Of a DNA stretch of 64,000 nt, positions 54,664 through 62,595 are shown one piece after another (the first letter of the stretch is position 1; every line of letters starts with the position of its first letter). Under the pieces are notes generated by a model. It was not told the DNA's origin. It saw only the letters and a list, made by a program, of their open reading frames with translations, and made no database searches. Source of the DNA: Naegleria gruberi (Eukaryota); the NCBI GenBank assembly GCA_000004985.1, contig GG738861.1; one strand, given 5' to 3'. The position numbers and the translations under genes are program-made.

Positions 54664-54959
54664 CCCTTTGAATTTCCAAATCTGTAGTCATTAATACTAC
54701 ACCATCATTTTGTAAATATGATTCGCTCACAATATTGATAAGGTTGGAACTAGGAAATGTTACAACAAAAAACTATTCGATATCCATTCTAATTTCATTT
54801 TTAGCAATCAACAGTTCACCTTTCATTACAATAATCGGTATTGAAGAGATTTTCATTCCACAACCAATAAAGCAACAAGTGTCTCTTGGATTTTTCACAC
54901 GAAAAAAAAGCGTCCCTGACATTTGCCATTCAACAACAAATTGATTGACCAAAATCAAG

Positions 54960-55946
54960 ATGATTAACCCATCTGTTTCCACTGTGCAAACTTTGCACTC
55001 ACCTGATGTGCGCCAAATGATTCCCATCACTTTCGGCTACACTTCAACCTACGCCCACACTATCCTAAACTTTAACGGAACCTCTCTGTTGCCACAACAA
55101 TTCAACGATTTTCACCAACTTTCCCAAGCAGACTATACCAAAACCTGTCAAGAATTAGACACTCTCATTCTCAAGAATTATGCCTACGAGGAGAGAAAAG
55201 AGTTATTCATGAGAATTGCTGCCATTGTTTCATTAATTCTCTTGCTGCCAATTATTGGATTTTTCATTTATTATGCAATCGATGAGTTGTTTTTAAAGAA
55301 GAAGAGAGATGCTGAATTGAGAGAGAATATGCAAAGGATTTTGGATGATCACAATGCTAGATTGTATAATCCTAAGGGAGTTTCATTGGTTTTGGATGTT
55401 GGATTGACATTGAATAGTTTTTCTGTTCCGATTGAAGCTTGGGAAATTAAGGTTGTTTCACATAGAGTTCAATTGCCACCTGCTAATCAACCATTGGCTT
55501 CCCCAGTCAAATTATACGAAACTAGATGTTCCTATAATAGAGAATGTCGTTTATTTAATCAAACTATTCCAGCCTCAATCAAGGATCAATATCAATTAGG
55601 AGATGAATGGGAGAAACTTGTTAAGGAAATGAATGCAATTTCCCTTAATAATTTACAAGTTTTCTTTCAATTTGTAACTGCCCCATTATACTGGTCTGTT
55701 TTGGTTTCGTCCATTACTCTATTTCTTGCTCTATTTTTATTTTTGCCATTCTTCTTGATCTATGTTGCCATCATTTACTTTGTAAAACTCAAACCAGAAG
55801 AAGATAATATGAGAAATGTGAAACTTCCACAACTTGTGAAGGAATATAATGAGAAATATTTCCTTCCAAAGGGTTTGAGAATTGCTCTCGATCAAAATAA
55901 GGTAAGAACTGCACATATTGATACTCTTTATTTGGCAAAACAATAA
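54960..55946 (+). CDS. Hypothetical membrane protein (2 predicted TM segments)
   Basis: The track start is a TTG and the ATG is at 54960 (MINPSVSTVQ...). TM1 is IAAIVSLILLLPIIGFFIYYAI. TM2 is LYWSVLVSSITLFLALFLFLPFFLIYVAIIYFV. No family recognised. Confidence 0.5.
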   Translation: MINPSVSTVQTLHSPDVRQMIPITFGYTSTYAHTILNFNGTSLLPQQFNDFHQLSQADYTKTCQELDTLILKNYAYEERKELFMRIAAIVSLILLLPIIGFFIYYAIDELFLKKKRDAELRENMQRILDDHNARLYNPKGVSLVLDVGLTLNSFSVPIEAWEIKVVSHRVQLPPANQPLASPVKLYETRCSYNRECRLFNQTIPASIKDQYQLGDEWEKLVKEMNAISLNNLQVFFQFVTAPLYWSVLVSSITLFLALFLFLPFFLIYVAIIYFVKLKPEEDNMRNVKLPQLVKEYNEKYFLPKGLRIALDQNKVRTAHIDTLYLAKQ

Positions 55947-56004
55947 AAATATTCGAAATGAGTAAATCATGAGAAATATTTCCTAAATTTAATGATTTTT
56001 CAAA

Positions 56005-57171
56005 TTAATGTTCACTAGCGGCAGAAAACAATGCAGCAACTGGTGTCGAAACTAATGATTCAGTTTTTGTTGTTGTTGAGCTTTTCACAATTTCATTTCT
56101 CTTTTCAATTTCATTGAGCGCCTTTTCAGAGTCCAAGAATAATGGATAGAAAAGAAATAAAACCAAAACTGAATAGATTAAAACACCTAGACAATTGAAG
56201 AAATGCCAAACTGCTTTGATTTCTTCAAAAGCTGTGACTCCTGCAGCTAAACTAACGGAAATTATTTCTAATAAAATACACAAAACTAAACCTATCATTA
56301 ATCCAATGGTAATTTTGAATGGTGATTGAACTCTCTTTTCAAATGTTTGAGTTTCTAATGAAATCCTTACAGAGCTATTACTGTGATTATTTTTCTGAAT
56401 GGATTGAGTAACATTTTGAGTTGTTTTCCTAATGTTTCGAATAACCAAAACTCCAGAGCTGATAACCATTGAAATAACAAAAGCAAACATGAAGAAAACA
56501 ATCACAGCAAAGACAGGAAAAATATATGTCATTGTACTTGTTGGCACAATTTCGAAATTCTTAATTCCATATAAAATAGAAGCTGCCAAAATTAATAAGG
56601 AAGAAACGAAAATGAATACCACATTAATGGAAATCATTAGCATTTCAATAACTTTGTGAGTTTTCTTTGAAACTGCTCGCATTAGTTGTGCTGTTTTCCA
56701 ACTTGAATTCGAAAGTTCAGTAAACTGAAAATTAAACTAAACTTACAACATACTCTGAATGAAAAATATAATTTCAAACAGCGAAATAAAGTTAATATAC
56801 ATAAAGAATGTTGAAACGCCACCCATCACTTGAATTGCAACGAAAAAATTCCATTCTACTAATTGACCACTTTCGGATAATATCCTGCCATGCATTTGCA
56901 TGGAATCAAGGACTAATCTGCACATCAGATTCAAACATTGTATCAGAACAAACAAAATTGTGAGTCCGAATAGTATTTTGTGGTTTCGAACAAGTTTAAT
57001 TTTCGTGCTTATTCGAAACAAGAATAAACCTAGACCTATTAAATAAACTAGAAATACAATGAGAAAGAATAAACAATTAGCAAGAGATATTGCATTCGAC
57101 CAAACTGGAAGAAATGCACCTGTAGTAACGTTAGCATATTCATTAATTTCAATTGGTTTCGAATAGAACAT
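56005..57171 (-). CDS. Seven-TM membrane protein, tandem paralogue A: join(57171..56747,56701..56005)
   Basis: Exon 1 (MFYSKPIEINEYANVTTGAFLPVWSNAISLANCLFFLIVFLVYLIGLGLFLF...IIFFIQSM) ends in phase 2 at a GTAAGT donor. A 45-nt intron ends in caAG. Exon 2 is FWKTAQLMRAVSKKTHKVIEMLMISINVVFIFV... with 4 more TM segments. Total 373 aa and about 7 TM. See paralogue B. Confidence 0.7.
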
Positions 57172-57536
57172 TTGGATTTGTTTTTTTTAATGTTGAAAAG
57201 TTTGTTGCATTTTATTGCTTGATTCGCAAATATCGCAACTAGTGGGGATACTGGAATCATTACTCATCTCTTGTCGAGGAATCCATTGTTGAAAATGTAT
57301 ATCTACACCTTTCGAATAATCGTAATGCACTTTCGGTTGATGAGAGCAGCTATGAAAATACTTTTATGAGGAGAGATGCATTTCGAAGATACCAACATGG
57401 AAGCATTGCATGTTACTTTCAAATCCCAAAATGTCGTTGCATTCGTCTTGTTTCTAATATTTTTTACCATGTTACAATATTATTAGAAACATTACCATTT
57501 TAAAATTAAATAATGTTTGTCTATCAATTGAGTGGT

Positions 57537-58637
57537 TTAGTTTTGTAATAATTCAACAATTGCATCAGCCAAGTCGTTATAGTTTCGTTTAAATCTGAAA
57601 CCATGAGTTCCACATTTCCATTCCTTAATTTTCAACTTTCCATTCGAAACCTTGTTAATTAAAGTAGCAAATAATTCGCCTTCATCTCTTACTACATCAT
57701 ACTCGGCAAGCCAGACGAAACCTTTTGGAAATTTGGAATAGAATAAATTATCTGAAAGGTCAATAGCACTAAGTGGTGATAAAAATCTATTCGATTTCAC
57801 TTCTTCTTCCCTCAATTCACCAATTAACAAACTCCAAAACATGTCCATTATCATTCCATCAAGTAAAAGTCCACAATCTCTAAATTTCTTATACGAATCA
57901 TACTTTTCATTTCCATATTTGTAATATTCCAAAACTGGATATAGTAAACCTTGCTGAGTTATCTGTGGCACATTTTCTCTTTCCAATATTTCTTTATCAA
58001 CTGAAAATATTCTAATTTGAGTTGTAATTGCTAAATGAGCTCCTGAAGATTCTCCTGTTATGGTCAATTGTGAAATATTTCCATTATATTTCTGATAATT
58101 CTTTCCAATCCAAGAAAGTGCATTCAAATTATCATTTAAACATGATGGGAAAACGTGTTCTGGAGTTTTTCTGTAATTTACACTCACGACTAGGAATCCT
58201 TTTTTGGATAAAGTCAGGCAGAGTTGATTGGAAGAGTCAATTGAGCCAAGCATCCAACCACCTCCATGAATATACATCACAATGGGATAGCCATCATTTT
58301 TGAAAGGTTTAGGTTGGTAAATTCGAAGTGAATAGTGTGAAATTGGTTGACCATTTTCTTTCAAATATAGTTCAGAACTTGAAGTGTCAAATGTAATTGG
58401 AATTGTCTCAATTTTCAACGATTCCGTTTCTAGAGAAGGTGGCAATGGTTTGGAAAGAACCTTTTCTATTATTTTCATTCTAGGTCCAAGAATTTTTATC
58501 ATTGACTTGATTAGGAAACTTCCAACAATTATTGAAATTTTCACACCAGGAAATTTCACACTTTGCAAATAGATATGACCAATAAAGAATGCTACTATTA
58601 ACACGGCTACAATAAACAGTACGAGTAGTAATGCCAT
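57537..58637 (-). CDS. Alpha/beta-hydrolase fold-3 lipase/esterase (arylacetamide deacetylase / hormone-sensitive lipase-like), membrane-anchored
   Basis: An N-terminal TM anchor (MALLLVLFIVAVLIVAFFIGHIYL) is followed by the HGGG oxyanion motif (YIHGGGWMLGS), a GXSXG nucleophile elbow (ITGESSGAHLAI), and a C-terminal candidate catalytic His (WKCGTHGF). Confidence 0.8.
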   Translation of the reverse strand: MALLLVLFIVAVLIVAFFIGHIYLQSVKFPGVKISIIVGSFLIKSMIKILGPRMKIIEKVLSKPLPPSLETESLKIETIPITFDTSSSELYLKENGQPISHYSLRIYQPKPFKNDGYPIVMYIHGGGWMLGSIDSSNQLCLTLSKKGFLVVSVNYRKTPEHVFPSCLNDNLNALSWIGKNYQKYNGNISQLTITGESSGAHLAITTQIRIFSVDKEILERENVPQITQQGLLYPVLEYYKYGNEKYDSYKKFRDCGLLLDGMIMDMFWSLLIGELREEEVKSNRFLSPLSAIDLSDNLFYSKFPKGFVWLAEYDVVRDEGELFATLINKVSNGKLKIKEWKCGTHGFRFKRNYNDLADAIVELLQN

Positions 58638-58836
58638 TTTTTTTAAATATTTCCAAATAGCTTCAACGTTTACTGCGACAATTTACGATTATTCGTTGAG
58701 ATTCTAGTTGACCGTTGTAATCTTGCAATTATTATCCCTATTGCAGAGTTATTCTCATTAGTTCCAGATCCAAGCAAGCTTCAATTTCTTCCACAAATTA
58801 TAATTTCAATCCATTAAGACACAACTCAATAGTCAA

Positions 58837-60012
58837 TCACACATCTTCCTTACTCAATGAAATCTGTGAAGAATTTGCAGAATTTTCAATTTTCACAACA
58901 ATGCTCGAATTCATCAACTCATTTCTCTTCTCAATTTCCTTCAATGCATTTTCCGAATCCAAAAACATTGGATAGAAAAGCAACATTAACAGCACTGCAT
59001 AAATCAAAACTCCCAAACAATTGAAAAAGTGCCAAATTGCCTTGAAATCTTCGGATGAAGTTACGGTGGAGGCGAGAGCCAAAGAAATTATTTCCAATAG
59101 AATGCACAATAATAATCCTAAAAGTAAGCCGAAAGTTATTTTGAAGGGAGATTGGACTCGTTTTTCAAATGATTTGATTTCAAAGGAAGCTCTGTTGGTG
59201 GGAGCAGAGTTTTGAGTATCGGAAAGTGAAGTGTTTCGAATAGATTGAGTGACGTTTCGTGTTGTTTGTTTGATGGTTCGCATGACGAGAATTCCTGAAG
59301 TGATAATTAATGAACTGAGGAAGATTAGAATAATGAAAATTGCAATAAATGATGCAACGAAGGCATAGGTCAAGTAGTTATTCGAAATGATTTCGAATTT
59401 CTTAATTGCATACAATGCAGAAACTGCAACCACAACCAAAACTCCAATAATTACAACCACAACATTTGCTATTAGAATGATAATTTCAATAATTCTATGT
59501 GTCTTGTTTGAAATGGCTCTTAAAAGTCTTGCAGTTTTCCAACTAGACAAATTATTCGAAAGTGTTCAAAACTAAACTTACAATAATCTCTGAACAAAGA
59601 AAATAATTTCGAATAGTGAAATGAAATTAATATACATGGCAAATGTTGTAATACCTGCTGTCACTTGAATAGCAAGAAATAAACTCCATTCCACCAATTG
59701 ACCACTTTCGGATAATAATCTTGCATGTATTTGCAACGAATCATGAACTAATCTACAAATTAAATTCAATATCTGAATAATAACAAAGATTATTGTCAAC
59801 ACAAATAAAACCTTGTGATTTCTCACTAGTTTCACCTTTCTACTTATTCGAAACAAGAATATTCCAAGTGCAATCAAGTAGACAATGAAAATTATTAGAA
59901 AGAAAATACAATTCGAAAGTGAGAGAGCACAGGACCATACTGGAAGAAAGACAGATGTTGTTACGTTGGCGAAACCTCCACTTTCAATAACTTCTAAAGG
60001 TACAATTGACAT
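58837..60012 (-). CDS. Seven-TM membrane protein, tandem paralogue B: join(60012..59582,59542..58837)
   Basis: Exon 1 is MSIVPLEVIESGGFANVTTSVFLPVWSCALSLSNCIFFLIIFIVYLIALGIFLF...IIFFVQRL. It has the same phase-2 GTAAGT donor at the homologous position. A 39-nt intron ends in ctAG. Exon 2 is FWKTARLLRAISNKTHRIIEIIILIANVVVVII.... Total 378 aa, about 55-60% identical to paralogue A. Confidence 0.7.
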
Positions 60013-60322
60013 GTTTTTTTGTGTGAATTAATTATGTTTCGTCCGGTTTCTTTTGGTGATCTAATCCTGTTTGGGAACATGTAAATGATGCAGTTAACAA
60101 TATTAATTGTCAATTTGACTTTCTATATTTGAAATAGAATCGGTCAAAAATGCTCAAACATTTCTAATAGTTTTATTCGAAAGATCTACTATGTCAATAA
60201 GGAAATGGATGAACATCATGTAAACGAACTCTTGAAAAGAACAACAATCAGTTGAAAAATTACTTGCATTCTATTGACAAAGTTTTTTACAAATCTAATG
60301 GAATTTTAAGATATCTAAGAGA

Positions 60323-60560: not shown

Positions 60561-60726
60561 TGATGTAAATTACAATATCCTTCTAGTATATGATAGAGAG
60601 TTTCCAATTTTTCTTTTGGATCACCAATTTTGTGCCATATAGAAAACCCAATGTATTTATGTAGCTAGGAAGATATTTGGAACTCTAAATTGATTGAGTT
60701 TTTTGGATAAAGTGATCACAAAAAAA

Positions 60727-62595
60727 ATGTCCATAAGAGCAGCAAGATTATCATGGTCAACTGTTGTTAGGGTTGGAAAATTGGCACTTTTCTCTAATAA
60801 CACCAACAAGAAAATATTTTCGCACCATCAATTCACAAAATTAAATACTTTTAATACCTTTACAAATATTAATATTAATAATACTAATAATGCTATTAGA
60901 CAATATCACAGCAAGAGTACACTCCATAACAATACTGCTATTGAAAATGTTACTTTGGAAGATTCAATAGAATCCAGTAAAAAAGATAGAATTCAACATT
61001 TGACAGATGTTCTTGATTTGAATCCAAATTTTGCTCCTGCTCTGTTAGAGAGAGGTTTATTATATCAAGAATTGCATGATTTTACAAATTCTTGTATTGA
61101 TTTGGAAAAAGCAATTGAGATTGATCCAAATATAGAAGGATTAGTAAATCTGCATACTCAACTAGGCTATATGTATTCGAAAGTTGAAAAATGCCATGAA
61201 AAGGCGATTTTACATTTAGAAAAAGCATTGGATTTATGTTTTGAAGCTAATATAATTCCTTCAAATATAATTTTCATGTTAACATATACACTCTATGACA
61301 ATAATGGTCACCACGAAAAATCAATTAAACTTTTAACGAGGGGAATTAAATTTCTATCAAGTTTGGAAGCAACTGAAGAATTATCAGAATTATATGTACT
61401 GAGAGGAAATACTCTAATTTCTGAATATAAAATGTTTGAACGTGGAAATCAAGATTATGAAACATCACTTCAATTAGGAGTCAAAACCAAATTGTATTGT
61501 TTAAGAATAATTTTGAATTCTTATGTAAATTTACAGTTATTTGATGATAAGATATTAATGTATTACAATATGGCAAGTGACATTATTAAACAATTTGAAG
61601 CTGAAAATGTGAAACAACTAGATTATCATGTTGCAGAAATGTATTACACTGAATATTCTAAAATTAATACTATAATGAGAGATTATTATTGGAATAGAAA
61701 GGAATTCACACTAGCTCAGCAATATGCTGGTGAGGCAATTTATAAAAATAATCCTGAAAATATTAGAATTGATCCAATGCAACATAATGATTATAGATGC
61801 TTATGTTTATTGAATGGAAATTTCAGAGATGTTCTAGAAAATGTAGAATATATTTATGGGAAGATTGCAAGTAACATTACAGTTGATTTAAGTTTCAAAG
61901 GTGAATATTCAGAACTATTCGGAAACAAAACAGAAACCTTAATTTCACAACGTATTTTCTTGGGTTTATTATATGAAGCTGATAGGCAAATCGACAACTC
62001 GATCTTATTTTGTGGACCAATCAAAGAATTGTTGAAAGATTACAAAATTGATGAAAATTTCACATGTATTCCAAAAGAAAAATTGGAAACTCTCTATCAT
62101 GTGCTTGAAGGATATTGTAATTTACATCAGGGCGATCATTCTCTTTTGAATGAAAACATTTCTCTTGTTGTAAAATATTTTCCATTTTATTTATTTACAA
62201 TTGGTACAAGATACAAAATTAGAAATGAAATGGATAGGTCAAGAGAGTATTATTTACAATATTTCGATAAAAGTGGAGATTTGGAAGGATTATCTGAAGC
62301 AACTGACTGTCTAATTTCACTAAATAGATATGAGGAGGCAGTGGAAGAATCTGATAAATTATTAGAAAGAGATCCATTATACATTCATGCTCTGTACAAC
62401 AAGGGTGAATCATTATTTCACTTGGGGAAATTAGAAAGTGCCAGAAAGTGTTTTGATTTGGCAATTACTGAAGCTGAGAAACAGAACCACAAACATCTTG
62501 AATTGATGGTTCATTCATTGAAGCAAATGTGGCCTCAATATTTAATATTGTCAATTCCTATTACTTTGAAAAAAACCAATAAAAAATTAATTTAA
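60727..62595 (+). CDS. TPR-repeat protein with a presequence-like N-terminus
   Basis: The track start is a TTG and the ATG is at 60727 (MSIRAARLSWSTVVRVGKLALF, resembling a mitochondrial targeting peptide). There are N-terminal TPRs (NFAPALLERGLLYQELHDFTNSCIDLEKAIEIDPN) and C-terminal TPRs (NRYEEAVEESDKLLERDPLYIHALYNKGESLFHLGKLESARKCFDLAI). Confidence 0.7.
   Translation: MSIRAARLSWSTVVRVGKLALFSNNTNKKIFSHHQFTKLNTFNTFTNININNTNNAIRQYHSKSTLHNNTAIENVTLEDSIESSKKDRIQHLTDVLDLNPNFAPALLERGLLYQELHDFTNSCIDLEKAIEIDPNIEGLVNLHTQLGYMYSKVEKCHEKAILHLEKALDLCFEANIIPSNIIFMLTYTLYDNNGHHEKSIKLLTRGIKFLSSLEATEELSELYVLRGNTLISEYKMFERGNQDYETSLQLGVKTKLYCLRIILNSYVNLQLFDDKILMYYNMASDIIKQFEAENVKQLDYHVAEMYYTEYSKINTIMRDYYWNRKEFTLAQQYAGEAIYKNNPENIRIDPMQHNDYRCLCLLNGNFRDVLENVEYIYGKIASNITVDLSFKGEYSELFGNKTETLISQRIFLGLLYEADRQIDNSILFCGPIKELLKDYKIDENFTCIPKEKLETLYHVLEGYCNLHQGDHSLLNENISLVVKYFPFYLFTIGTRYKIRNEMDRSREYYLQYFDKSGDLEGLSEATDCLISLNRYEEAVEESDKLLERDPLYIHALYNKGESLFHLGKLESARKCFDLAITEAEKQNHKHLELMVHSLKQMWPQYLILSIPITLKKTNKKLI

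What the first reader, a model, noticed from the sequence alone, without database searches (positions are those of the whole stretch)
56005..60012. Tandem pair of 7-TM paralogues flanking a membrane lipase; intron position conserved, acceptor sites differ
Genes A (56005-57171) and B (58837-60012) lie on the same strand and are about 55-60% identical. Both are interrupted at the homologous codon (SM|F / RL|F, phase 2, GTAAGTTTAGTTT donor). A uses a caAG acceptor with a 45-nt intron. B uses ctAG with a 39-nt intron. The only gene between them is an AADAC/HSL-type alpha/beta hydrolase. The 7-TM topology, with a 3+4 TM split across the intron and a long third cytoplasmic loop, is receptor-like. 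I cannot assign a family from sequence alone.
Basis: seen in the sequence. Interest (0 to 1): 0.5.

Follow-up and report, generated by a model that had tools for sequence, protein, structure and literature searches.

The report
Naegleria tandem GPCR-like 7TM gene pair
Two neighbouring genes of the amoeba Naegleria gruberi encode old duplicate copies of a seven-helix membrane protein that folds like a G-protein-coupled receptor; it belongs to an undescribed family seen only in Naegleria and Willaertia, and the esterase gene between the copies looks like a chance neighbour.

Summary
The window is Naegleria gruberi nuclear DNA. On the minus strand lie gene B (60012-58837, 378 aa), an Abhydrolase_3 esterase (58637-57537) and gene A (57171-56005, 373 aa). 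A and B are 61% identical. Each has one phase-2 intron at the homologous codon (45 nt with caAG, 39 nt with ctAG), and both introns start GTAAGTTTAGTTT.

This intron is not special to the pair. It sits at the same place in Willaertia and N. lovaniensis homologues, and 23 further ORF fragments stop exactly at the TT|GTAA read-through.

No Pfam or PDB sequence match exists. An exhaustive profile search finds about 100 cluster representatives, and every named one is from Naegleria or Willaertia.

Both copies are under purifying selection (dN 0.30, dS saturated), so neither is a pseudogene.

The receptor-esterase-receptor block is not seen at any of the four homologous loci I examined.

Verdict: an ordinary old tandem duplication within an undescribed, lineage-restricted GPCR-like family. 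G-protein coupling is inferred, not shown. Both public gene models here are wrong.

The parts
59582..60012 (-). Gene B exon 1. Encodes Met1 to the first two bases of codon 144: an N-terminal NVT sequon, then TM1 to TM3.
   Evidence: A metagenomic ORF, P0009, matches it at 99% and ends with the TT|GTAA read-through.
59543..59581 (-). Gene B intron. 39 nt, phase 2, GTAAGTTTAGTTT...TCTAG.
   Evidence: The junction yields FVQRLFWKTARLL, identical to the junction in the public model P0001 and matching the conserved FWKTA of homologues.
58837..59542 (-). Gene B exon 2. Encodes ICL2, TM4 to TM7 and a cytoplasmic tail ending EDV, plus the stop codon.
57537..58637 (-). Intronless gene for a 366-aa alpha/beta hydrolase of the HSL/family IV type (Abhydrolase_3). 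It has an N-terminal hydrophobic anchor and the motifs HGGG, GESSG, DVVRDEG and HGF.
   Evidence: One search gives the ORF. PF07859, E 4.6e-38; the closest solved relatives are EST2-type carboxylesterases, E 1e-26.
56747..57171 (-). Gene A exon 1. Encodes Met1 to the first two bases of codon 142: the NVT sequon, then TM1 to TM3. It is missing from the public model.
   Evidence: It is 76% identical to the Willaertia magna locus L001 9377-9787.
56702..56746 (-). Gene A intron. 45 nt, phase 2, GTAAGTTTAGTTT...TTCAAG.
   Evidence: By my reading of the sequence, the internal TTTTCAG acceptor would leave a 22-nt intron and run into a stop codon.
56005..56701 (-). Gene A exon 2. Encodes ICL2, TM4 to TM7 and a tail ending SEH, plus the stop codon.
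   Evidence: The public model P0004 covers only this exon, starting from an internal Met.

Best explanation
A and B are two functional, anciently duplicated tandem paralogues. They belong to a multigene family of seven-transmembrane proteins known so far only from Naegleria and Willaertia (heterolobosean amoebae).

The proteins sit in the membrane with a short, probably glycosylated N-terminus outside and the C-tail in the cytoplasm. They adopt the GPCR-type seven-helix bundle.

The single phase-2 intron lies at the cytoplasmic end of TM3. It was inherited from the family's ancestor, so its conservation between A and B is expected. The cAG versus tAG acceptor difference is neutral drift.

The most likely function is that of a membrane receptor. 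The more variable parts (TM4-ECL2-TM5, ECL3) would sense a ligand. The conserved cytoplasmic face would engage a common intracellular partner, plausibly a heterotrimeric G protein. That face comprises the RNxK motif at the ICL1/TM2 boundary, QxxF(W/L)xT at the TM3 end, PF(K/I)K at the TM6 base and L(F/Y)xP in TM7. This function is an inference.

The esterase gene between the two copies is an unrelated neighbour.

Shown: the gene structures, paralogy, family distribution, ancestral intron, purifying selection, 7TM topology and GPCR-like fold. Inferred: cell-surface location, ligand sensing and G-protein coupling.
For: Gene structure and 61% identity.

Organism and family:
- Hits are 'predicted' or 'hypothetical' proteins of N. 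gruberi, N. lovaniensis, N. fowleri and Willaertia magna.
- An exhaustive HMMER profile search of 1.84 billion representatives gave 100 hits at E<=1e-3, with no named hit outside those genera.

Ancestral intron:
- It has the same position and phase, with TT|GTAAGT...AG|TTGGAAAAC, in Willaertia L001 and N. lovaniensis L002 and L003.
- 23 ORF fragments from distinct 50%-identity clusters end one residue (Leu) after profile position 142, as the TTG-TAA read-through of a TT|GTAA donor predicts. Another 24 fragments start just after that position.

Both copies functional: pN 0.246, dN 0.30, pS 0.72 (saturated). ORFs are intact and the family motifs are kept.

Old duplication: DNA similarity is confined to the coding region. 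The Willaertia orthologue is about 76-82% identical to A in tblastx segments, closer than B is.

Topology: seven hydropathy peaks, and by my reading of the sequence the Lys/Arg-rich loops are ICL1, ICL2 and ICL3. An N-terminal NxT sequon is kept in most of the 24 aligned members.

Fold:
- AlphaFold2 with a 110-sequence alignment gave pLDDT 82.5, pTM 0.78 and seven long helices.
- The top 34 Foldseek PDB hits are all GPCRs; a microbial rhodopsin first appears at rank 35 of the 50 listed.

Conservation is higher in ICL1 and ICL2 than in the extracellular loops. A/B divergence is concentrated in TM4-ECL2-TM5.

Tandem pairs occur elsewhere in the family without a hydrolase.

Context from the literature: N. 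fowleri has conventional slow-exchange G-alpha subunits but only one recognisable candidate GPCR (PMC9283941).
Against: - There is no sequence-level link to any GPCR family. Pfam was negative for 23 members and 2 consensus sequences, and the PDB was negative by sequence and by profile.
- Class A signature motifs (DRY, CWxP, NPxxY) are absent.
- Foldseek E-values are weak, at 0.02 or above.
- The excess conservation of the cytoplasmic halves of the TM helices over the extracellular halves is not significant (p = 0.11).
- No expression, splicing, localisation or binding data were available.
Confidence: 0.72

Rival explanations
1. The proteins share the 7TM fold but are not signalling receptors. 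They would be endomembrane scaffold or trafficking proteins, in the manner of plant TOM1/TOM3/THH1 or GOST/TMEM87-type proteins, or else transporters or channels.
For: - UniRef names one distant family member (N. fowleri A0A6A5BLT3, P0106) a 'THH1/TOM1/TOM3 domain-containing protein'.
- There is no sequence link to any G-protein-coupled family.
- The family-wide C-terminal Val/Ile resembles a trafficking signal as much as a signalling one.
Against: - PF06454 (THH1/TOM1/TOM3) is not matched at E<=10 by P0106, P0043 or any of the other 21 members or 2 consensus sequences scanned.
- There is no lumenal GOLD domain; the N-terminus before TM1 is only about 25 residues.
- No plant or other TOM1-type protein appeared among the 100 hits of the exhaustive profile search, as far as those hits carry names.
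Confidence: 0.2
2. The receptor-esterase-receptor arrangement is a functional gene cluster. For example, the membrane esterase would make or destroy a lipid ligand sensed by A and B.
For: The three genes share a strand, with spacers of about 200-365 bp. The esterase has an N-terminal membrane anchor, so it would sit in a membrane as A and B do.
Against: - No conservation at the four homologous loci examined. The Willaertia orthologue of A is a single gene between DUF5662 and PfkB genes.
- N. lovaniensis members lie next to RGS and His-kinase genes, or next to PHD and PROPPIN genes.
- The N. lovaniensis tandem pair has no gene between its copies.
- No esterase remnant flanks A or B, and A/B DNA similarity stops at the coding-region ends.
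- Operon-like functional clustering is not a general feature of this kind of eukaryotic genome (general knowledge).
Confidence: 0.05
3. One of the two copies is a decaying pseudogene, or the proposed splice sites are wrong in one copy.
For: - Gene A is annotated as the exon-2 ORF only, and gene B carries an extra in-frame 168-nt 'intron'.
- A lacks the family's usual C-terminal Val/Ile and ends SEH.
- No transcript evidence could be consulted.
Against: - Both spliced ORFs are complete, and both keep the four invariant and five nearly invariant columns of the 24-member alignment.
- dN/dS is about 0.12.
- A has a 76-82% identical orthologue in another genus.
- The proposed junctions recreate the conserved FWKTA motif.
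- By my reading of the sequence, the alternative acceptor inside A's intron leads to a stop.
- The segment removed by the public model of B contains the family's best-conserved motif, RNHKxLF.
Confidence: 0.03

Closest known systems
G-protein-coupled receptors, compared at fold level (solved class A opsins, P2Y, PAF and chemokine receptors; class D Ste2; class C GABA-B and GPR156)
   Same: - Seven helices with an N-out, C-in topology.
- An N-terminal glycosylation sequon.
- TM5 and TM6 extend into the cytoplasm around a variable ICL3, and the tail is rich in Ser and Thr.
- A conserved Pro lies in the cytoplasmic half of TM7, and a conserved motif sits at the cytoplasmic end of TM3.
- It is a lineage-specific multigene family that expands by tandem duplication.
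   Different: - Sequence identity is 5-11%, and no profile-level match to any Pfam GPCR family exists.
- DRY, CWxP and NPxxY are absent. The family has QxxF(W/L)xT at the TM3 end and L(F/Y)xP in TM7 instead.
- G-protein coupling is untested.
THH1/TOM1/TOM3 family (Pfam PF06454; plant seven-pass proteins needed for tobamovirus multiplication and listed as candidate plant GPCRs)
   Same: These are 7TM-only proteins of similar size with no extra domains. One distant family member carries this name in UniRef. TOM1/TOM3/THH1 have themselves been discussed as GPCR-like (PMC2530877; PMC12716839).
   Different: PF06454 is not matched by any member or by the family consensus here. No TOM1-type protein from other eukaryotes turned up in the exhaustive profile search, as far as the hits carry names. 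A direct profile-profile test could not be run.
Naegleria 7TM-RGS proteins and the single cAR-like candidate GPCR of N. fowleri (PMC9283941)
   Same: They come from the same organisms and share the predicted 7TM architecture. They are candidate upstream elements of the unusually rich Naegleria G-alpha repertoire.
   Different: No member of this family has an RGS domain. The family profile did not retrieve any RGS-domain protein among the 20 retrieved hits that were also scanned against Pfam. That paper mentions such orphan 7TM proteins only as 'data not shown'.
Microbial (type 1) rhodopsins
   Different: TM7 has no lysine for a retinal Schiff base (WHFFNCLGVLIYxVLxxxLFYP). There is no Bac_rhodopsin Pfam match.

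Membership tests
GPCR superfamily (7TM receptor fold) | Seven TM helices with an extracellular N-terminus and a cytoplasmic C-terminus | tested here: met
   Seven hydropathy segments in both A and B. By my reading of the sequence, the basic residues lie in the loops TM1-2, TM3-4 and TM5-6 and after TM7. The AlphaFold models show seven helices.
GPCR superfamily (7TM receptor fold) | Three-dimensional similarity to solved GPCRs over the whole bundle | tested here: met
GPCR superfamily (7TM receptor fold) | Sequence-profile match to a recognised GPCR family (7tm_1/2/3, Dicty_CAR, Git3, Frizzled, STE2/3 and others) | tested here: not met
   hmmscan against Pfam-A gave no GPCR family hit at E<=1 to E<=10 for A, B, 20 other members and 2 consensus sequences. 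There was no PDB sequence or profile hit.
GPCR superfamily (7TM receptor fold) | Ligand-dependent activation of a heterotrimeric G protein | not testable with these tools
   This needs biochemical or cell-based assays with Naegleria G-alpha subunits.
Class A (rhodopsin-like) GPCRs | D/ERY at the TM3 end, CWxP in TM6, NPxxY in TM7 | tested here: not met
   The family alignment shows QxxF(W/L)xT at the TM3 end, no CWxP, and L(F/Y)xP in TM7.
THH1/TOM1/TOM3 (PF06454) | Match to the PF06454 profile | tested here: not met
   No PF06454 hit at E<=10 for P0043 or P0106 (the member UniRef names this way), for any other scanned member, or for the consensus. HMMER's speed filters may hide very weak matches, and HHpred was not available.
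PQ-loop / MtN3-type 7TM proteins | Internal duplication of a 3-TM unit carrying PQ motifs | tested here: not met
   hhalign of TM1-3 against TM5-7 and against TM4-7 sub-alignments gave probabilities of 1.3% and 3.0%. No PQ-loop Pfam hit.
Frag1/DRAM/Sfk1 | Match to the family profile | tested here: not met
   No hit in the Pfam scans.
Microbial rhodopsins | Retinal-binding lysine in the middle of TM7 | tested here: not met
   No Lys in TM7 of A or B, or in the aligned TM7 segment of the other members.
GOST / TMEM87-type 7TM proteins | A large lumenal GOLD-type N-terminal domain before the 7TM bundle | tested here: not met
   The N-terminus before TM1 is about 25 residues in A and B. Only the 7TM part resembles TMEM87A.
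HSL / family IV alpha/beta hydrolases (Abhydrolase_3; AADAC-like) - applies to the middle gene | A PF07859 match, the HGGG oxyanion motif, the GxSxG nucleophile elbow, and the catalytic Asp and His | tested here: met
   PF07859, E 4.6e-38. The sequence shows YIHGGGW, GESSGA, DVVRDEG and GTHGF. The closest solved relatives are EST2-type carboxylesterases, E 1e-26. The substrate (lipid or otherwise) was not tested.
AADAC-type membrane anchoring - applies to the middle gene | An N-terminal signal-anchor helix | tested here: met
   Residues 2-24, ALLLVLFIVAVLIVAFFIGHIYL, are uniformly hydrophobic. This rests on reading the sequence only; no dedicated predictor was run.

The most novel reading that the evidence does not exclude
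This Naegleria/Willaertia-restricted family is a previously unrecognised class of true G-protein-coupled receptors. It would be the 'missing' exchange factors for the conventional, slow-exchanging G-alpha subunits of Naegleria, for which only one cAR-like candidate receptor has been recognised so far. A and B would be two ligand-specificity variants that diverged mainly in TM4-ECL2-TM5.
Probability: 0.3. Interest if true: 0.6.

Novelty: new variant of a known kind. Interest (0 to 1): 0.35.

Why it matters
Naegleria has many G-alpha subunits, including conventional ones that should need a receptor to exchange nucleotide. Only one recognisable GPCR candidate has been reported, alongside 28 7TM-RGS proteins (PMC9283941). 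A family with a confidently predicted GPCR-type fold gives concrete candidates for the missing receptors. At least 18 distinct members are annotated in N. lovaniensis. That bears on when receptor-driven G-protein signalling arose in eukaryotes, and on drug targets in the pathogen N. fowleri.

At the practical level, the work corrects two wrong public gene models. It also defines family markers that can be used to annotate other heterolobosean genomes: the phase-2 intron after TM3, the motifs RNxK, FWKT, PFKIT and LFYP, and the C-terminal Val/Ile.

The tandem pair itself, and its shared intron, are ordinary.

Tried and rejected
- Structure and exhaustive searches therefore used paralogue P0003 and exon-wise fragments.
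- **AFDB search unavailable**.
- **Third homologue search.** A word-indexed search with a 24-member profile at E<=10 returned only known members.
- **Pfam.** Scans of 23 members and two family consensus sequences matched no family above its curated score cut-off; the few weak hits were to unrelated families.
- **PDB sequence and profile searches.** Nothing, or only E>3 noise.
- **PQ-loop-type internal repeat.** Rejected by hhalign.
- **Microbial rhodopsin.** Rejected because TM7 has no Lys.
- **RGS neighbour in N. lovaniensis.** The gene next to P0002 is not a 7TM-RGS. Its 431-aa main ORF, read by eye and not scanned against Pfam, shows no hydrophobic TM stretches. I did not treat the adjacency as evidence.
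- **N. gruberi gene context.** The look-ups for P0001 and P0003 found nothing on record.
- **Literature.** A search for the locus tags and accessions found no paper.
- **Bacterial promoter/terminator scan.** Uninformative for a eukaryote.
- **Intron similarity beyond the splice signals.** Only marginal, 62 of 2000 shuffles, so I make no claim of a conserved intronic element.
- **Cytoplasmic versus extracellular TM-half conservation.** A trend only, p = 0.11.
Full report
**1. What is in the sequence**

The window is AT-rich (34% GC). It comes from Naegleria gruberi: exon-level translations are 99-100% identical to N. gruberi 'predicted proteins' on a 507-kb scaffold.

Three genes lie on the minus strand between 60012 and 56005:
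- Gene B: exon 1 60012-59582, intron 59581-59543, exon 2 59542-58837.
- An intronless 366-aa ORF, 58637-57537.
- Gene A: exon 1 57171-56747, intron 56746-56702, exon 2 56701-56005.

Removing the 39-nt and 45-nt introns gives uninterrupted reading frames of 378 and 373 codons. Both introns are phase 2 and both begin GTAAGTTTAGTTT. A and B are 61% identical over 360 residues (E 1e-139). The only correction is that identity is marginally higher than stated.

**2. Are the splice sites right?**

The spliced junctions produce ...IQSM-FWKTAQLMRAVS... in A and ...VQRL-FWKTARLLRAIS... in B. Full-length annotated homologues from N. gruberi (P0003) and N. lovaniensis (P0002) read ...VQNMFWSTATLMRAIS... 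and ...VQKMFWKTALLTRAIS... across the same point.

By my reading of the sequence, the only other AG inside A's intron (TTTTCAG) would leave a 22-nt intron and run into a stop.

The genomic loci of three homologues carry an intron at precisely this codon and phase, with TT|GTAAGT...AG|TTGGAAAAC. These are Willaertia magna L001 and N. lovaniensis L002 and L003.

I aligned all retrieved proteins to a family HMM. Twenty-three ORF fragments from different 50%-identity clusters end one residue (Leu) after profile position 142. A TT|GTAA donor read through as TTG-TAA predicts exactly this. Another 24 fragments begin just after that position.

The intron is therefore ancestral to the whole family. Its conservation between A and B is expected, and the cAG/tAG difference is neutral. 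Apart from the splice signals, the two introns are only marginally more alike than shuffled sequence (62 of 2000 shuffles). No RNA-seq could be consulted.

**3. Age and state of the duplication**

Synonymous sites are saturated (pS 0.72), while dN is 0.30, which gives a dN/dS of about 0.12. Nucleotide similarity (68%) stops at the ends of the coding region.

A has an orthologue in Willaertia magna that is 76-82% identical in tblastx segments, closer than B is to A. So the duplication is old and both copies are under purifying selection. Neither looks like a pseudogene.

Divergence between A and B is concentrated in TM4-ECL2-TM5 (36-42% identity), ECL3 and the distal tail (19%). TM1-3, TM6-7, ICL1 and the proximal tail are 70-86% identical.

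**4. The family**

Word-indexed searches found only Naegleria and Willaertia proteins and unnamed metagenomic ORFs.

An exhaustive HMMER profile search of 1.84 billion cluster representatives found 100 proteins at E<=1e-3 and 61 at E<=1e-10. Every hit that carries a name is a 'hypothetical' or 'predicted' protein of one of four species:
- N. lovaniensis: 18 distinct representatives.
- N. gruberi: at least 5.
- N. fowleri.
- Willaertia magna.

None of 23 members, and neither of two family consensus sequences, matches any Pfam family above its curated score cut-off. The PDB has no sequence or profile match. No paper mentions the locus tags.

UniRef names one distant member (N. fowleri A0A6A5BLT3) a 'THH1/TOM1/TOM3 domain-containing protein'. 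PF06454 is not matched here even at E<=10, so that link remains a lead only.

**5. Topology and fold**

Hydropathy gives seven segments in both A and B, three before and four after the intron. By my reading of the sequence, Lys and Arg cluster in the TM1-2, TM3-4 and TM5-6 loops and after TM7. An NxT sequon precedes TM1 in most of the 24 aligned members. This indicates an N-out, C-in topology.

- With 13 sequences: pLDDT 67.
- With 110 family sequences: pLDDT 82.5, pTM 0.78, above 90 across the helices, and seven long helices with a disordered ICL3 and tail.

With the shallower model, rhodopsins led. The top 34 Foldseek hits are GPCRs, with a microbial rhodopsin first at rank 35 of the 50 listed, and E-values are weak at 0.02 or above.

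The fold is therefore the GPCR/rhodopsin-type seven-helix bundle, leaning towards GPCRs. Several alternatives fail on specific features:
- TM7 has no lysine, which excludes a retinal protein.
- There is no GOLD domain, which excludes GOST proteins.
- TM1-3 does not resemble TM5-7 (hhalign probability 1-3%), which excludes a PQ-loop-type duplication.

**6. What is conserved**

Across 24 full-length members the best-conserved positions are:
- KxxRNxK(I/V)LF at the ICL1/TM2 boundary.
- A Gln and an Arg in TM2.
- QxxF(W/L)xT at the cytoplasmic end of TM3. This is where class A receptors carry DRY, and it is where the intron lies.
- PF(K/I)K...GL at the base of TM6.
- G(V/I)LxFA...L(F/Y)xP in TM7.

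ICL1 and ICL2 are more conserved than the extracellular loops (2.0-2.4 versus 1.5-1.7 bits). The cytoplasmic halves of the helices are not significantly more conserved than the outer halves (p = 0.11). This pattern fits a common intracellular partner and variable outer surfaces, but it does not prove either.

**7. The gene in the middle**

The 366-aa protein is an Abhydrolase_3 (HSL/family IV) hydrolase: PF07859, E 4.6e-38. It has the motifs HGGG, GESSG, DVVRDEG and HGF, and a hydrophobic N-terminal anchor. Its nearest solved relatives are EST2-type carboxylesterases. 'AADAC/HSL-type' is right. 'Lipase' is unproven.

The block is not seen at any of the four homologous loci examined:
- The Willaertia orthologue of A is a single gene between DUF5662 and PfkB genes.
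- N. lovaniensis P0002 lies between RGS and histidine-kinase genes; the RGS gene's main ORF shows no TM stretches by eye.
- P0014 lies between PHD and PROPPIN genes.
- N. lovaniensis has a directly adjacent same-strand pair, C9374_007817 and C9374_007818, with nothing between the two copies.

I therefore read the esterase as a chance neighbour.

**8. Most likely function and comparison with known systems**

The best-supported reading is a lineage-restricted family of GPCR-like receptors that has expanded partly by tandem duplication.

The literature gives this some weight. N. fowleri has conventional slow-exchange G-alpha subunits that 'presumably require' a receptor. Only one cAR-like candidate GPCR and 28 7TM-RGS proteins were recognised, and other orphan 7TM proteins were mentioned only as data not shown (PMC9283941). 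None of the scanned members of the present family has an RGS domain.

Membership of any named GPCR family fails at the sequence level, and the class A motifs are absent. The claim is therefore 'works like a 7TM receptor', not 'is a member of family X'.

The main rival is a non-signalling 7TM protein of the TOM1 or GOST kind, and it cannot be excluded with these tools.

**9. Verdict**

The tandem arrangement, the shared intron and the differing acceptors are ordinary.

What is mildly interesting:
- The pair belongs to an undescribed, Naegleria/Willaertia-restricted family with a GPCR-like fold.
- Both public gene models at this locus are wrong.
- The family carries a striking C-terminal Val/Ile.
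- The locus shows an unexplained local excess of the hexamer TTCGAA.

Noticed in passing
window 55,900-60,200: The palindromic hexamer TTCGAA occurs 37 times in the 64-kb window, against 17.6 +/- 4.4 in shuffles. Nineteen of these sites lie in this 4.3-kb locus (binomial P about 3e-13 if spread evenly). They fall in all three codon frames of A, B and the esterase, in both introns (56708, 59555) and in intergenic DNA. Only three pairs are at homologous A/B positions. The homologous genes of Willaertia and N. lovaniensis carry 1, 1 and 0 sites. I have no explanation.
   Followed up: partly
window 59773-59940 (gene B) and 56747-57171 (gene A exon 1): Both public N. gruberi models are wrong here. 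NAEGRDRAFT_66269 (XP_002678680, 322 aa) splices out an in-frame 168-nt 'intron' (GTATGG...CAG). That removes residues 25-80 (the end of TM1, ICL1 and TM2), which all homologues keep. NAEGRDRAFT_66267 (XP_002678678, 225 aa) is only the exon-2 ORF of gene A, starting from an internal Met.
   Followed up: yes
C-termini of family members; gene B ends at window 58840 (EDV), gene A at 56008 (SEH): Of 70 family proteins with a complete C-terminus, 39 end in Val and 13 in Ile. Val and Ile make up about 7% and 6% of the otherwise unalignable tails, and many termini read [S/T]-x-V. This looks like a conserved C-terminal sorting or PDZ-type signal. B has it. A does not, although A's Willaertia orthologue ends AIV.
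   Followed up: partly
L005 5708-7212 and 7633-8460 (N. lovaniensis PYSW02000031.1): Two family members, C9374_007817 and C9374_007818, lie directly adjacent on the same strand with a spacer of about 420 bp. Tandem duplication therefore recurs in the family without any intervening gene.
   Followed up: partly
L002 7756-9622 and 12625-18503 (N. lovaniensis PYSW02000049.1): The closest N. lovaniensis relative of A and B (P0002) sits between an RGS-domain gene and genes for a hybrid histidine kinase and a guanylate/adenylate cyclase, with two Ras/Roc GTPase genes further on. The RGS gene's main ORF shows no TM stretches by eye. This may be coincidence, since signalling genes are very numerous in Naegleria.
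   Followed up: partly
window 54945-55946 (+) and 60694-62595 (+): The flanking ORFs are a 333-aa protein that has hydrophobic stretches by eye and only a sub-threshold Erf4 match, and a 633-aa TPR-repeat protein. Neither is related to the 7TM pair.
   Followed up: partly
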